A stretch of 64,000 nucleotides of DNA from a virus (Duplodnaviria > Caudoviricetes). The stretch spans positions 160,001 to 224,000 of IMG/VR virus record IMGVR_UViG_3300011242_000002. One strand, written 5' to 3'. The notes under the pieces were generated by a model, which saw only the letters and a list, made by a program, of their open reading frames with translations, made no database searches and was not told where the DNA came from. The position numbers and the translations under genes are program-made. Shown piece after piece: positions 1,785 through 17,480 of the stretch (positions are counted from its first letter, which is position 1; each line of letters opens with the position of its first letter).

Positions 1785-2537
1785 ATGAAAAGCAATGAAC
1801 AATTTGCACGTAAATGCCTTTCCAACTTACCGCGGTTACGGGGTCGTAATTTCCGTATCGTCCTGGTTGCTAAACGCACCGTACGTCCGATGTATATCAA
1901 ATCTTCGTCTGAAGAGCAGCTGATTGCGTTCTTTAATCTGTTCCAAAGCTTCATGATCGACAACGATTTGTTGGCTACACCGACGATGGGGGAAGAGGAT
2001 GATCTGTTCGTTACCTTCGCTCCGTTCCAGTTCCACGTGGGTAACTACGCGCATGCCGCACCGGTTGACTTCCTGGAAGCGATCGTTAGCGAGTTCTACT
2101 TCCACTCGGTAGTGGGTGAGAATGCGTATGCTAACACCGTTAAATCAGCTAATGTAGATCTTGATGAAGAGATCACGCGCCGTCTGCAGGTCCCTCTTCT
2201 CGAGTTACGTCGGGGTGGCGTGATTCCAATGCAGGTTCGTCGTTACATCCCTGGACCAAGGGGATTTAACAAGAATAGCAAATATCACACTACGAGCTGG
2301 GCGAGCTGGGGTAGAGAAACGGCGGGTGAAACCACACTGATGGATTTGGAGAAAGAGCCTCATCTGGTAGTGGTAGTCAAGCCTTGGGCTGCGAAGAACG
2401 ATCCTAAACATGGTCGCGATGATCTGAGATATGCATTAAGCATTCCAGAATTCCTGGCTTACGCTGAACGTAAGAATCTGTCAACCGGCCCTGTCAGTTG
2501 GGAAGGTGATTTTACAATCAGTCGTATAAAGGACTAA
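1785..2537 (+). CDS. hypothetical protein
   Basis: 250 aa, GAGG RBS, followed by terminator. Confidence 0.75.
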   Translation: MKSNEQFARKCLSNLPRLRGRNFRIVLVAKRTVRPMYIKSSSEEQLIAFFNLFQSFMIDNDLLATPTMGEEDDLFVTFAPFQFHVGNYAHAAPVDFLEAIVSEFYFHSVVGENAYANTVKSANVDLDEEITRRLQVPLLELRRGGVIPMQVRRYIPGPRGFNKNSKYHTTSWASWGRETAGETTLMDLEKEPHLVVVVKPWAAKNDPKHGRDDLRYALSIPEFLAYAERKNLSTGPVSWEGDFTISRIKD

Positions 2538-4305: not shown

Positions 4306-5348
4306 TGCGCATTATCGGCTTATGGAACCCGGATCACCACACTGGGGTGGTTAGTAACAACTCGACGTTCACGCCCAACACCTCAGCATTGTACATTAAC
4401 GACACGGTACCCACTAACCTCTTAAGCGCGACGGTCAGTAATGGAAAACCCTCTAACTGGGCGTGGTATGTCATGCAGGCCCTCGGACGTAACTGGTTGC
4501 GCATTCTCCCCACTGTCAGTTCCAACCCCCCTATCACCTACTATACGCTGTGTCCGGCGTTAAACGCCAGCCAGTATACCGAGCTGCGGGCACAGGGCGT
4601 GAAGCGGGTCTATTATGGGCTACGGGTTTACGCGATGTCGGTGAAGGCGGGCGCTTACCTAATCGTCGTGAGCGGTTCCCAATATTTCCCTATCACTACC
4701 GGTAACGTTTACTTTGTTGAGGCAGTCATCAACCTCGAGGACAATACCCGCACAATTTACGTCAATGGCGCAGTGGTCCCCATCCCTGTAGTGAACGATT
4801 TGGTGGCAGTCGGCAACTACAACAGCTCCATGCTCTCGGGATCAAGCCACAGTTTTGGTGTTACCGATTACTATTTTGCAGCCAGTGAGGCCAGCGATAC
4901 GGTGTTACCGGCACGCTTGGGGAAGATGACAGTGGGCACAGCCCTGCCGGTCAGCACCAGCAACGACAGCAAATTTAAAGCCGTAGGTCGATTTAACATC
5001 GTTGACACTTTGGCACTTGCACGGGCTATCCAGGCACCCAACTACCTTTCTGACTACGTGGAGTCGGACTCTAACGGCAGCAAAATGGATGTGATGTTTG
5101 CAGCCCCGACGGCAGGTAACGAAATCTTTGGCGTCACCTTACGGGTGGCGGGGATGAAGGATCCGGCGGCACAGGCCTTTGCTCGCGTGGATTACGGCAG
5201 CGGGATGAAGAACGTCAGTATCCCGAATACCGACAGCACCCTAACGCCTTACTATCATCCTTTCCCGATTGACAAACCCACCAACGGCTGGAGCGAAGCC
5301 GAGCTGGGTAAGATCACCGTTAAGCTCTGGAGTGAACGTACTGTGTAA
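4305..5348 (+). CDS. putative virion/tail-associated beta-sandwich protein (module 2)
   Basis: Paralog of 3064-4122; next to tailspike gene. Confidence 0.6.
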   Translation: MRIIGLWNPDHHTGVVSNNSTFTPNTSALYINDTVPTNLLSATVSNGKPSNWAWYVMQALGRNWLRILPTVSSNPPITYYTLCPALNASQYTELRAQGVKRVYYGLRVYAMSVKAGAYLIVVSGSQYFPITTGNVYFVEAVINLEDNTRTIYVNGAVVPIPVVNDLVAVGNYNSSMLSGSSHSFGVTDYYFAASEASDTVLPARLGKMTVGTALPVSTSNDSKFKAVGRFNIVDTLALARAIQAPNYLSDYVESDSNGSKMDVMFAAPTAGNEIFGVTLRVAGMKDPAAQAFARVDYGSGMKNVSIPNTDSTLTPYYHPFPIDKPTNGWSEAELGKITVKLWSERTV

Positions 5349-16962: not shown

Positions 16963-17062
16963 GTCCGGATAGTTTAATGAGAACAACGTCCTGGAAAGTG
17001 GTATAACTTACATGCCGCGTAATGGACGAAGGTGGATGAGGTTTGAGTCCTCCCTCCGGACA
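16963..17062 (+). ncRNA. tRNA-like cloverleaf with extended anticodon arm (non-canonical or pseudo-tRNA)
   Basis: Acceptor GTCCGGA/TCCGGAC, T8A9, D-arm GTTT-AATGA-GAAC, CGTCC/GGACG arm with 32-nt insert, T-arm GAGG-TTTGAGT-CCTC; no encoded CCA. Confidence 0.6.
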
Positions 17063-17082
17063 ACCTTTTGCTCTACGTCGTA

Positions 17083-17172
17083 CTGCCTGATGAGTTGCCG
17101 ACGTTAACTGCAACGAAACCTCGAGCAGTCTGGTCCCGCAAGGGAGTTCCAACCGGGCTGCTCTTGTCGCAG
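17083..17172 (+). ncRNA. type I hammerhead ribozyme
   Basis: Stem I CTGC/GCAG, core CTGATGA (17087-93), stem II GTTGC/GCAAC, GAAAC (17115-19), 12-bp stem III extension, GTC triplet 17166-68. Confidence 0.85.
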
Positions 17173-17347
17173 GGTTATCTCATTGACCAGGGTGTCTCGA
17201 GCTAACGCAGCCTACTGACTATTTGAAATTACTACCGGGTTCTTTGGAATAGTCAGCGGGATGCGGTAATTTGACCGGTTACCTGTATCAGCATCGCAGG
17301 GGTGCGATGTACGGTTCATGTTCTTGTGTTGAGTAGATGTAGCGGCT

Positions 17348-17384
17348 AAAACCCCGGGGCTAAACACCTCGGGGTTTTATGCCG
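17348..17384 (+). terminator. terminator ending the ncRNA cluster
   Basis: AAAACCCCGGGG-CTAAACA-CCTCGGGGTTTT-ATGCCG. Confidence 0.8.
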
Positions 17385-17421
17385 GTTAAAAGCCAAATGC
17401 ATAATGCAGTTAATTTCAAAT

Positions 17422-17437
17422 CTATATTACCGCAGTG
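17422..17437 (+). promoter_or_regulatory. phiKZ-type early promoter
   Basis: CTATATTAC-CGCAG-TG with upstream TTTCAA. Confidence 0.75.
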
Positions 17438-17480
17438 ATAGATGTAAATAAACCCCCTTCTTCGTTCAGGAGATACCGCT

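What the first reader, a model, noticed from the sequence alone, without database searches (positions are those of the whole stretch)
16963..17062. tRNA mimic with a doubled-length anticodon arm
Seen: perfect 7-bp acceptor stem, T8-A9, 4-bp D stem, and a T-loop TTTGAGT. The anticodon loop is replaced by 32 nt forming an internal loop and a second 7-bp stem (GTGGTAT/ATGCCGC, loop AACTTAC). The D-loop lacks GG and no CCA is encoded. Established: tRNA-like domains without decoding function occur in tmRNA and bacterial Y RNAs. Inference: a non-decoding mimic (RNase P/Z processing signal or nuclease decoy), an intron-containing tRNA, or a decaying tRNA.
Basis: partly seen in the sequence, partly recalled or inferred. 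Interest (0 to 1): 0.7.

Follow-up and report, generated by a model that had tools for sequence, protein, structure and literature searches.

The report
Non-decoding tRNA-shaped RNA of jumbo phages
A group of giant Erwinia and Salmonella phages keeps a 100-base gene for an RNA that folds like a tRNA, but its codon-reading loop is replaced by a long rod ending in a nearly unchanging seven-base loop, so it cannot decode and most likely uses the tRNA body as a stable, self-trimming handle for that loop.

Summary
Window 16963-17062 (+) folds into a cloverleaf whose anticodon loop is replaced by an internal loop, a 7-bp helix and the loop AACUUAC.

It is a real, selected RNA gene. I found nine distinct homologues in three clades of phiKZ-like jumbo phages:
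- the window phage, Salmonella SA002 and Erwinia pEa_SNUABM_48;
- the Agricanvirus group (Ea35-70, RAY, AH06);
- two uncultured contigs.

In these, 259 of 261 stem positions pair, and 22 of 29 pairs show compensatory double changes. Only the tip AACUUA(C/A) is invariant.

- **Not a decoding tRNA.** ARAGORN finds nothing, even with its intron option. Rfam tRNA scores 16.7 bits against a threshold of 29. No consistent anticodon can be rebuilt.
- **Not a pseudogene.**
- **Context.** In every homologue a type I, pseudoknotted hammerhead ribozyme lies 12-170 nt downstream. Its predicted cut in the window is after C17168.

Best reading (about 0.5): a natural "tRNA scaffold". The tRNA body gives folding, RNase P processing and stability, and the rod displays a recognition loop whose partner is unknown.

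This scan noted the same kind of RNA block in another jumbo-phage genome (e1-5368591). I found no description in print. Function is inferred, not shown.

The parts
16963..17062 (+). tRNA-shaped non-decoding RNA gene: the whole cloverleaf plus discriminator A17062
   Evidence: The minimum-free-energy fold is the cloverleaf, z -3.4. Rfam tRNA aligns end to end at 16.7 bits with a 28-nt insertion in the anticodon loop. Model R1 finds a single copy in the 273-kb genome and homologues at E 1e-20 to 1e-26.
16963..16969 (+). Acceptor stem, 5' strand. It pairs with 17055-17061.
   Evidence: All 7 pairs show compensatory changes across 9 homologues. In the 4-sequence MAFFT alignment, 3 of 7 do.
16972..16984 (+). 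D arm: GUUU / AAUGA / GAAC. No G18-G19.
   Evidence: Sequence is nearly invariant within clade A. One pair covaries between clades. U8, A14 and A21 are invariant. The 15-48 pair is A-U, or G-C in Ea35-70.
16987..16991 (+). Anticodon-stem equivalent, 5' strand (CGUCC). It pairs with 17024-17028.
   Evidence: All 5 pairs covary across 9 homologues, all cells paired.
16992..16997 (+). Internal loop, 5' side (UGGAAA). The 3' side is 17019-17023 (GUAAU).
   Evidence: GGA is invariant in clade A only. The loop has a different sequence and size (9-10 x 7-8 nt) in clades B and C.
16998..17018 (+). Extension hairpin: 7-bp stem 16998-17004 / 17012-17018 around the tip loop
   Evidence: All 7 pairs covary, with 3-5 pair types each and no unpaired cell.
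17005..17011 (+). Tip loop AACUUAC, the only sequence invariant in all clades (AACUUA); it contains the YUNR motif CUUA
   Evidence: Identical in clades A and B. Clade C has AACUUAA. Clades B and C carry 3-4 extra loop bases on the 5' side.
17034..17054 (+). T arm: GG(AU)GAGG / UUUGAGU / CCUCCC, 6 bp with a bulge
   Evidence: The stem is paired in all homologues. The outermost pair covaries as GC/GU/AU. The loop is canonical UUCAANN in Ea35-70 and clade C, and divergent in clade A.
17075..17172 (+). Neighbouring type I hammerhead ribozyme (context, not part of the tRNA-like RNA). Elements: core CUGAUGA 17087-17093; stem II 17094-17114; GAAA 17115-17118; branched stem III; predicted cut after C17168; stem I CUGC/GCAG; pseudoknot ACGUCG 17075-17080 with loop II 17099-17104.
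   Evidence: The core is conserved in all homologues, with variation only at the free position 7 (pEa48). Stems I, II and III and the pseudoknot covary. The cleavage triplet is GUC, GUA or GUU. Rfam Hammerhead_3 scores 28-30 bits in relatives, below its threshold.
17169..17378 (+). RNA downstream of the ribozyme cut, ending in a terminator-like hairpin at 17348-17378 (context)
   Evidence: 81% identical to pEa48 over 17163-17452. The terminator hairpin is kept with compensatory changes in SA002, G001 and UViG_3300031134. There is no + strand ORF of 50 aa or more between 16829 and 17434.

Best explanation
This is a conserved gene for a non-decoding, tRNA-derived small RNA of a lineage of phiKZ-like jumbo phages that infect Enterobacterales.

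The RNA keeps the tRNA body:
- a 7-bp acceptor stem;
- a D arm with U8, A14 and A21;
- a covarying 15-48 pair;
- a 6-bp T arm.

The anticodon loop is replaced by a rod: an internal loop plus a 7-8-bp helix. The rod presents an invariant single-stranded motif, AACUUA(C/A), which contains a YUNR U-turn signature.

Proposed mechanism (inferred). The tRNA body works like the engineered "tRNA scaffold". It makes the transcript fold compactly. It lets host RNase P cut the 5' leader at G16963. It lets host 3' trimming and CCA repair define the 3' end. It also shields the RNA from decay. The hammerhead 12 nt downstream cuts the same transcript after C17168 without any protein, and so separates this RNA from the downstream RNA. 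The working end is the tip loop, which binds an unknown RNA (by loop pairing) or an unknown protein.

Shown here: the fold, its conservation and covariation, the lack of a usable anticodon loop, and the constant linkage to the ribozyme.

Inferred: transcription, RNase P cutting, stability, and the tip as the working end.
For: **Structure under selection.** In an unfitted MAFFT alignment of 4 homologues, 100% of 116 cells pair and 11 of 29 pairs change on both sides. No shuffle of 500 reaches this, and slid controls pair only 40-52%. A manual structural alignment of 9 distinct sequences from 3 clades gives 259 of 261 cells paired and 22 of 29 pairs with compensatory changes.

**Independent detection.** Model R1 found members that were not in its seed: G001 at 89.7 bits and AH06 at 28.8 bits, E 5.5e-5. 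Clade C was found only through the linked hammerhead.

**tRNA core kept.** U8, A14 and A21 are invariant. The 15-48 pair is A-U, or G-C in Ea35-70. The T loop is UUCAANN in Ea35-70 and clade C.

**Non-decoding.** ARAGORN finds nothing, with or without its intron option. Rfam tRNA scores 16.7 bits against 29. The loop at the tip is 7 nt in clade A but 10-11 nt in clades B and C.

**Only the tip is invariant, while its stem covaries at all 7 pairs.** This is the pattern expected of a displayed recognition loop.

**RNA strand.** The + strand folds with z -3.4 and the - strand with z -0.76. There are G.U pairs, 1-2-nt indels between homologues, and no + strand ORF.

**Engineered precedent.** A tRNA acceptor, T arm and D arm with the anticodon stem-loop turned into an insertion hairpin is processed and accumulates stably in E. 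coli (PMC3753655).

**Precedent for ribozymes next to phage tRNAs.** Theta ribozymes, proposed to process tRNA 3' trailers (PMC10879173).
Against: No partner for the tip was found. The complement GUAAGUU occurs only 6 times on the + strand of the 273-kb genome, below the 7-mer average of about 17.

The D-loop/T-loop elbow contacts are not kept in clade A: there is no G18-G19, and the T loop varies. Recognition by RNase P and by the CCA enzyme is therefore assumed, not shown.

The 13-bp acceptor/T stack departs from the 12 bp of standard tRNAs.

The phage encodes no RtcB, RNA ligase, CCA-adding enzyme or Ro protein that could point to a pathway.

A scaffold role does not by itself explain why a ribozyme is always next to it.
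Confidence: 0.5

Rival explanations
1. Pure processing punctuation. The tRNA shape exists only so that host RNase P and RNase Z cut a long phage transcript here, as in mitochondrial tRNA punctuation or MALAT1/mascRNA. The released tRNA-like RNA is a by-product.
For: It sits between transcript units. In SA002 an annotated CDS ends 7 nt before it (L001 CDS 1635-2021, element from 2029). A self-cleaving ribozyme follows in every homologue, so the locus is clearly a processing hot spot. An earlier scan report reached this reading for a different anticodon-sealed tRNA look-alike (e1-5336617, not tested here).
Against: A cutting signal needs only the acceptor/T minihelix. It does not explain a 7-8-bp extension helix held by compensatory changes at all 7 pairs, nor a tip motif invariant across three clades whose PolB proteins are only about 74% identical.
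Confidence: 0.2
2. Decoy or sponge. The RNA mimics a tRNA to soak up a host tRNA-targeting defence nuclease or a tRNA-binding enzyme, protecting host tRNAs or blocking a sensor.
For: The close relatives SA002, pEa48 and G001 carry a true tRNA-Tyr(GUA) about 800 nt upstream in the same RNA island. Phage tRNAs as counter-defence against anticodon nucleases are established (my own knowledge, not checked here). The tRNA core is preserved.
Against: The displayed loop does not copy a standard anticodon loop. It has A-A where C/U32-U33 should be, it is 10-11 nt in clades B and C, and its last base differs in clade C. It also sits about 12 bp further from the elbow than a real anticodon. No specific nuclease can be named.
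Confidence: 0.12
3. Intron-containing tRNA. The 25-41-nt insert is removed, and a normal decoding tRNA results.
For: The insert sits where tRNA introns sit. At 80% thresholds ARAGORN can force an intron model on each homologue. In the Rfam alignment the window reads CUGGAA before the insert, a possible GGA anticodon with the intron at 37/38.
Against: The forced models give Tyr, Val, Thr, Pyl(CUA) and Gly for homologous genes. U33 of the CUGGAA reading is C in three clade A members, and the motif is absent in clades B and C. The conserved part is the insert's tip, not the would-be anticodon loop. The insert is too short for a group I intron, and no Rfam intron family hit was found. No ligase or RtcB is encoded. 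I saw no bulge-helix-bulge motif on inspecting the sequence.
Confidence: 0.03
4. Decaying tRNA pseudogene or chance fold.
For: It fails the tRNA finders. The window phage has also lost the neighbouring tRNA-Tyr.
Against: 259 of 261 cells are paired and 22 of 29 pairs are compensatory across three clades. Model E-values reach 1e-20 to 1e-26.
Confidence: 0.01

Closest known systems
Canonical tRNA (Rfam RF00005)
   Same: 7-bp acceptor stem, U8, 4-bp D stem, A14/A21, R15-Y48 pair, 5-bp anticodon stem, 5-nt variable loop, T arm (UUCAANN loop in clades B and C), discriminator base. Almost certainly derived from a tRNA gene.
   Different: No 7-nt anticodon loop: a 25-41-nt rod stands in its place. 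6-bp T stem, giving a 13-bp stack. No G18-G19 in clade A. No encoded CCA in the window. Below Rfam and ARAGORN thresholds.
Engineered 'tRNA scaffold' for recombinant RNA in E. coli (Ponchon and Dardel; PMC3753655)
   Same: Same architecture: tRNA acceptor, D and T arms are kept and the anticodon stem-loop is turned into an inserted hairpin. There the body gives processing by cell factors and protection from nucleases. Ribozymes have been added next to such scaffolds (PMC3753655; PMC3401473 appeared in the search listing but was not read).
   Different: That is a laboratory design. This is a natural, conserved phage gene, and whether it is stable or processed is untested.
tRNA-like processing signals: MALAT1/mascRNA and gammaherpesvirus MHV68 tRNA-miRNA units (own knowledge, not checked here)
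   Same: A non-decoding tRNA shape embedded in a longer transcript, cut out by RNase P/Z and linked to a neighbouring functional RNA.
   Different: Those are eukaryotic or animal-virus examples. None has an extended anticodon arm with a conserved tip or a self-cleaving ribozyme beside it.
YrlA bacterial Y RNA (Rfam RF02553)
   Same: A non-decoding tRNA mimic found in bacteria and phages. A sub-threshold YrlA-like match lies in the same RNA island of Ea35-70 (44.5 bits) and AH06.
   Different: In YrlA the tRNA-like domain aligns in T arm - hairpin - D arm order (Rfam alignment). That its termini lie at the end of the long Ro-binding stem is my own knowledge. Here the termini are at the acceptor stem. 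There is no YrlA match and no Ro/TROVE gene in this genome.
Theta (HDV-like) ribozymes next to phage tRNAs (PMC10879173)
   Same: A small self-cleaving ribozyme encoded directly beside a phage tRNA-type gene, proposed to free it from the transcript.
   Different: Different ribozyme class (hammerhead type I, which stays on the 5' product). Different phages and hosts. The partner here is a non-decoding tRNA look-alike, not a suppressor tRNA.
tmRNA tRNA-like domain
   Same: A tRNA mimic without an anticodon, from which a long helix leaves at the position of the anticodon arm.
   Different: ARAGORN's tmRNA search is negative. There is no tag reading frame and no pseudoknots. The RNA is 100 nt, with a full D stem and anticodon stem.

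Membership tests
tRNA (decoding; Rfam RF00005 / ARAGORN) | Scores above the curated detection thresholds | tested here: not met
   ARAGORN finds 0 genes in the window and in the genome. Rfam tRNA scores 16.7 bits against a gathering score of 29.
tRNA (decoding; Rfam RF00005 / ARAGORN) | 7-nt anticodon loop with U33 and purine 37 at the standard distance from the elbow | tested here: not met
   The loop is replaced by a 32-nt insert. The tip loop reads A-A-C-U-U-A-C, is 10-11 nt in clades B and C, and lies beyond an extra internal loop and a 7-8-bp helix.
tRNA (decoding; Rfam RF00005 / ARAGORN) | Cloverleaf stems and core tertiary pairs (U8-A14, R15-Y48) | tested here: met
   All four stems are paired and covary. 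U8, A14 and A21 are invariant. The 15-48 pair is A-U or G-C.
tRNA (decoding; Rfam RF00005 / ARAGORN) | Elbow: G18-G19 with a T loop UUCRA | tested here: inconclusive
   Clade A lacks GG and its T loop varies (UUUGAGU, UGUCGAU and others). Ea35-70 and clade C have UUCAANN. AH06 has GG.
tRNA (decoding; Rfam RF00005 / ARAGORN) | Aminoacylation and use on the ribosome | not testable with these tools
   Needs charging assays or tRNA-seq.
Intron-containing tRNA | Removing the insert gives the same anticodon loop in homologues | tested here: not met
   ARAGORN -i finds none at default thresholds. At 80% thresholds it gives Tyr, Val, Thr (three times), Pyl and Gly, with differing intron positions.
Intron-containing tRNA | A recognisable intron type: a group I intron in bacteria and phages, or a bulge-helix-bulge motif in archaea | tested here: not met
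   The insert is 25-41 nt. No Rfam intron family hit at E up to 10. On inspecting the sequence, the 6x5-nt internal loop does not form 3-nt bulges around a 4-bp helix.
tmRNA | tRNA-like domain plus a tag-peptide reading frame | tested here: not met
   ARAGORN -m on the whole genome finds none. No Rfam hit.
YrlA / Y RNA (RF02553) | Permuted tRNA-like module on a Ro-binding stem, with a Ro (TROVE) gene nearby | tested here: not met
   No RF02553 match at E up to 1 and no PF05731 match in the genome. The termini here are at the acceptor stem.
Hammerhead ribozyme (neighbouring element) | Core C3-U-G-A-N-G-A9 and G12-A-A14, three stems, cleavage after N-U-H | tested here: met
   The core is intact in 9 homologues, with variation only at N7. 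Stems I-III and the loop II pseudoknot covary. H17 is C, A or U. Rfam scores stay below threshold at 28-30 bits, with the match modelled as type III. Self-cleavage itself was not tested.

The most novel reading that the evidence does not exclude
The tRNA body may deliver an antisense loop to the host ribosome. The tip AACUUAC is the exact complement of the whole 7-nt loop GUAAGUU of the universally conserved 23S rRNA hairpin 1945-1961. I call that hairpin helix 71, at the subunit interface, from memory. A loop-loop kiss there could interfere with late 50S maturation or with subunit joining during infection.

The complementarity was verified in E. coli K-12 rrlB and in a Vibrio LSU rRNA.

The case is weak:
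- 24% of all 7-mers occur somewhere in the E. coli rRNAs.
- Clade C has AACUUAA, which gives only 6 of 7 pairs.
- The geometry is unproven.
Probability: 0.04. Interest if true: 0.9.

Novelty: new variant of a known kind. Interest (0 to 1): 0.6.

Why it matters
Phage tRNA genes are usually read as codon-usage helpers or as spare parts against anticodon nucleases. Here a tRNA gene has been converted into something else, and that form has been kept by selection in a group of well-studied, culturable jumbo phages: Ea35-70, RAY, Deimos-Minion, AH06 and SA002.

It is a natural counterpart of the laboratory tRNA scaffold. It is hard-wired to a self-cleaving ribozyme in phages whose relatives build a protein nucleus.

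It offers a simple test system for how such phages make and use small RNAs: a 100-nt gene, an invariant 6-7-nt loop, and available phages and hosts.

It also shows that standard tRNA finders and Rfam miss this class. "No tRNA" annotations of jumbo phages can therefore hide tRNA-derived RNAs.

Tried and rejected
- **Strict DNA patterns for the D arm, or the D arm plus tip, in IMG/VR.** Among 18 and 33 stretches, only one true relative (L020). The rest are coding or unrelated.
- **The search for related loci with the neighbouring 193-aa protein.** Only two loci.
- **Model R1 (clade A seed).** It detects AH06 weakly and misses Ea35-70 and clade C. Absence of R1 hits elsewhere therefore means little. 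More distant jumbo phages (PolB 39% identical or less: LucasX, Noxifer, phiKZ, SPN3US, PCH45) were not scanned.
- **MAFFT on all clades.** It misaligns the anticodon stems (A6). I built no combined covariance model and made the three-clade alignment by hand in a script. The first hand segmentation had a one-base error in clade B and was corrected.
- **Intron reading.** Rejected.
- **Pathway enzymes encoded by the phage.** No RtcB, RNA ligase, CCA-adding enzyme or Ro/TROVE gene, and no YrlA RNA match.
- **Target search for the tip.** GUAAGUU is not enriched in the phage genome. No conserved complement lies in the downstream RNA. Complementary GUAAG(U) in the clade B spacer is not kept in clade A.
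- **K-turn or CsrA-type (GGA) readings of the internal loop.** The motif is not shared by clades B and C.
- **The 170-nt spacer of pEa48 and UViG_3300031134.** It holds a T-arm-like hairpin and a CCA, but the fold is not better than shuffles (z -0.24).
- **Literature.** Searches on hammerhead + phage + tRNA, jumbo phage + hammerhead, and tRNA-like + nucleus-forming phage found no description of this RNA. A large survey of viral structured RNAs mentions tRNA-like candidates only in general terms (PMC10690425).

Full report
**What the window is.**
The 64-kb window is part of a 273-kb virus record with terminal repeats. It encodes the divergent family B DNA polymerase PF20286 and split multisubunit RNA polymerase pieces typical of phiKZ-like jumbo phages.
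- Its nearest named relatives are Erwinia phages pEa_SNUABM_48 and pEa_SNUABM_37 and Salmonella phage vB_SalM_SA002. Three records have PolB 90-95% identical; pEa_SNUABM_48, the one listed, is 93.3%.
- Next come the Agricanvirus phages (Ea35-70, RAY, Deimos-Minion, AH06), with PolB about 74% identical.
- All other jumbo phages are at 39% or less.

**The observation.**
On the + strand the minimum-free-energy fold is a cloverleaf with these parts:
- a 7-bp acceptor stem;
- a 4-bp D stem;
- a 5-bp anticodon stem;
- a 6x5-nt internal loop;
- a 7-bp extension stem capped by AACUUAC;
- a T arm.

The fold has z = -3.4 against shuffles. The opposite strand does not fold better than shuffles (z = -0.76). 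ARAGORN finds no tRNA or tmRNA in the window or in the whole genome. Rfam finds nothing at gathering thresholds. At relaxed thresholds the tRNA model aligns over its full length, at only 16.7 bits, with a 28-nt insertion in the anticodon loop.

**It is a conserved gene.**
The element is present, unannotated, at the same place in SA002 and pEa_SNUABM_48 and in one IMG/VR contig.

A MAFFT alignment of these four, not fitted to any structure, pairs 100% of 116 cells. It has 11 of 29 pairs changed on both sides. No shuffle of 500 reaches this, and sliding the partners by 1-3 columns drops pairing to 40-52%.

A covariance model built from them finds:
- one copy in the window's genome;
- a fifth clade A member (G001, 89.7 bits);
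- a much more distant copy in Erwinia phage AH06 (28.8 bits, E 5.5e-5).

BLAST from AH06 shows the element in 17 Agricanvirus records. Ea35-70 differs from AH06 by compensatory changes. A third clade, in two uncultured contigs, was reached only through the linked ribozyme.

**Three-clade alignment.**
A hand-made structural alignment of the nine distinct sequences gives 259 of 261 cells paired and 22 of 29 pairs with compensatory double changes. Per element:
- Acceptor stem: all 7 pairs covary.
- Anticodon stem: all 5 pairs covary.
- Extension stem: all 7 pairs covary.
- U8, A14 and A21 are invariant.
- The 15-48 pair is A-U, or G-C in Ea35-70.
- The outermost of two extra T-stem pairs varies as GC/GU/AU. 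The acceptor/T stack is therefore 13 bp, not 12.

This alignment is fitted to the structure and leans towards it. The unfitted four-sequence result points the same way.

**What varies and what does not.**
- Stem sequences change freely.
- The internal loop differs in size and sequence between clades (6x5 nt in clade A, about 9-10 x 7-8 nt in clades B and C).
- The T loop is canonical UUCAANN in Ea35-70 and clade C but irregular in clade A.
- The D loop lacks G18-G19 in clade A.
- After the discriminator, SA002 has CCA, pEa48 and one contig have CCU, the window has ACCU, and clade B has neither.
- The only sequence block shared by all nine is the tip: AACUUAC in clade A, (A)CCUAACUUAC in clade B, and NCUAACUUAA in clade C.

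The motif always abuts the 3' strand of the extension stem. It contains CUUA, which fits the YUNR U-turn signature of fast-pairing antisense loops (my own knowledge).

**Not a decoding tRNA, not an intron, not a pseudogene.**
- The displayed loop has A-A where a tRNA has Y32-U33. It is 10-11 nt in two clades. It sits an internal loop plus 7-8 bp beyond the normal anticodon position, which does not fit the fixed anticodon-to-acceptor distance used by the ribosome (established knowledge).
- ARAGORN with its intron option calls nothing at default settings. At 80% thresholds it calls the seven homologues tested Tyr, Val, Thr (three times), Pyl and Gly, with different intron positions.
- The would-be mature loop flanks are the least conserved part, and the insert tip is the most conserved.
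- The phage encodes no RtcB, RNA ligase or CCA-adding enzyme.
- Decay is excluded by the covariation.

**Context.**
No + strand ORF of 50 aa or more lies between 16829 and 17434.

*The hammerhead.* Twelve nt after the discriminator begins a hammerhead. Its elements are:
- 5' flank ACGUCG (17075-17080);
- stem I strand CUGC;
- core CUGAUGA (17087-17093);
- stem II GUUGC/GCAAC with loop CGACGUUAACU;
- GAAA (17115-17118);
- a long branched stem III;
- GUC (17166-17168);
- stem I strand GCAG.

The predicted cut is after C17168.

Across the homologues:
- the core varies only at the free position 7 (CUGACGA in pEa48);
- stem II, stem III (up to 12 bp) and stem I covary;
- the cleavage triplet is GUC, GUA or GUU;
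- the loop II / 5'-flank pseudoknot covaries (ACGUCG/CGACGU, AAGUCG/CGACUU, ACGUCU/AGACGU).

Rfam sees only sub-threshold Hammerhead_3 matches of 28-30 bits in relatives. The large stem III insert probably hides the type I form.

*Spacing.* The distance between the tRNA-like RNA and the ribozyme ranges from 12 nt (window) to about 170 nt (pEa48). The two are therefore linked but are not one rigid fold.

*Downstream RNA.* In clade A, about 210 nt of conserved RNA follows the cut. It ends in a terminator-like hairpin at 17348-17378 that keeps its pairing through compensatory changes. The simple terminator scan did not list this hairpin.

*Upstream.* SA002, pEa48 and G001 have a normal tRNA-Tyr(GUA) right after the 193-aa ORF. 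In the window that roughly 110-nt piece is missing (junction 16178/16196), and the genome has no standard tRNA at all.

**How it most likely works.**
The anatomy matches the engineered tRNA scaffold. In that design the acceptor, D and T arms are kept, and the anticodon stem-loop becomes an insertion hairpin. The chimera is then recognised by E. coli factors, processed precisely and protected from decay (PMC3753655).

I therefore propose the following:
- The tRNA body is the handle. It provides folding, an RNase P cut at G16963, 3' trimming and stability.
- The hammerhead frees the RNA from the downstream transcript without any host enzyme. That would be useful if transcription takes place inside a phage nucleus; this is inference.
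- The invariant tip is the working end. It binds an RNA by loop pairing, or a protein.

Ribozymes beside phage tRNA genes have a precedent in the theta ribozymes (PMC10879173).

The fold, the selection and the linkage are shown here. Transcription, processing and the role of the tip are inferred. I put this reading at about 0.5.

The rivals and their weights:
- a pure RNase P/Z punctuation signal, 0.2. It does not explain the conserved rod and tip;
- a decoy for tRNA-targeting enzymes, 0.12. The loop does not copy an anticodon loop;
- an intron-containing tRNA, 0.03;
- a pseudogene, 0.01.

**Search for a partner.**
The complement GUAAGUU is not enriched in the phage. It occurs 6 times on the + strand of 273 kb, where the mean 7-mer count is about 17. 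No conserved complement lies in the cassette.

One coincidence is worth recording. GUAAGUU is the whole loop of the hairpin GUCGG-GUAAGUU-CCGAC at E. coli 23S rRNA 1945-1961. I call this helix 71 from memory.
- The 18-mer occurs in genomes of many bacterial phyla.
- It lies in LSU rRNA in a Vibrio contig.
- It is at 1950-1956 of E. coli K-12 rrlB.

Against it: 24% of all 7-mers occur somewhere in the E. coli rRNAs, and clade C would pair only 6 of 7. I treat this as a lead with a probability of about 0.04.

**Novelty.**
Non-decoding tRNA mimics are a known kind (the tmRNA domain, YrlA, mascRNA, viral tRNA-like structures). What I did not find described is this combination:
- a full cloverleaf with termini at the acceptor stem;
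- a covarying rod with an invariant tip in place of the anticodon loop;
- constant pairing with a hammerhead;
- a defined lineage of culturable jumbo phages.

The scan itself has noted the same kind of RNA island in another jumbo-phage genome (e1-5368591). It has also noted other anticodon-less phage tRNA look-alikes (e1-5355377, e1-5336617, e1-5367718). I did not re-test those. I class this as a new variant of a known kind, interest 0.6.

Noticed in passing
window 17075-17172: Type I hammerhead ribozyme with a loop II / 5'-flank pseudoknot and a large branched stem III. The predicted cut is after C17168. All stems and the pseudoknot covary in 9 homologues, and the cleavage triplet is GUC, GUA or GUU. 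Rfam misses it in the window and gives only 28-30-bit Hammerhead_3 matches in relatives.
   Followed up: partly
window 16178/16196 (compare L001 661-746, L002 670-755, L062 2891-2975): Relatives carry a normal tRNA-Tyr(GUA) directly after the 193-aa ORF. In the window about 110 nt including it are missing, so this 273-kb phage has no standard tRNA gene at all.
   Followed up: partly
L063 536-599 (Ea35-70) and L059 1-80 (AH06): Sub-threshold Rfam YrlA (Y RNA-like) matches of 44.5 and 27.8 bits. They show T arm, hairpin and D arm in permuted order, about 900 nt upstream of the tRNA-like RNA in Agricanvirus phages. The window genome has no such match and no Ro gene. The YrlA model also gave matches, none reaching its cut-off, in 13 of 14 control genomes, so this is weak.
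   Followed up: partly
window 17169-17378: About 210 nt of conserved non-coding RNA whose 5' end would be made by the ribozyme. It has several hairpins and ends in a terminator-like hairpin (17348-17378) that covaries in relatives. In clades B and C the sequence after the cut is different.
   Followed up: no
window 17005-17011 versus E. coli 23S rRNA 1950-1956 (L189 locus 4591-4597): The invariant tip AACUUAC is the exact complement of the whole 7-nt loop of the conserved 23S hairpin 1945-1961. The complement of the clade C tip (UUAAGUU) also occurs in 23S, at 652. Such matches are therefore easy to get by chance.
   Followed up: partly
L057 1601-1780 (pEa48) and L020 about 2390-2530 (-): A roughly 170-nt insertion between the tRNA-like RNA and the hammerhead holds a T-arm-like hairpin (CGGGG-UUAGAUU-CCCUG) followed by ...CUGCCA. 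This may be a remnant of another tRNA. The fold of the whole spacer is no better than shuffles (z -0.24).
   Followed up: partly
L060 1501-1595 (SA002 record 75892-75986): Weak hit of model R1 (18.8 bits, E 0.02-0.06). It has a perfect 7-bp closing stem plus A and an inner hairpin that contains CACUUAC. The coding context was not checked.
   Followed up: no
genome C1 92874-93183 (outside the window): With its intron option, ARAGORN calls a tRNA-Val(UAC) with a 216-nt intron. This was not examined and may be spurious.
   Followed up: no
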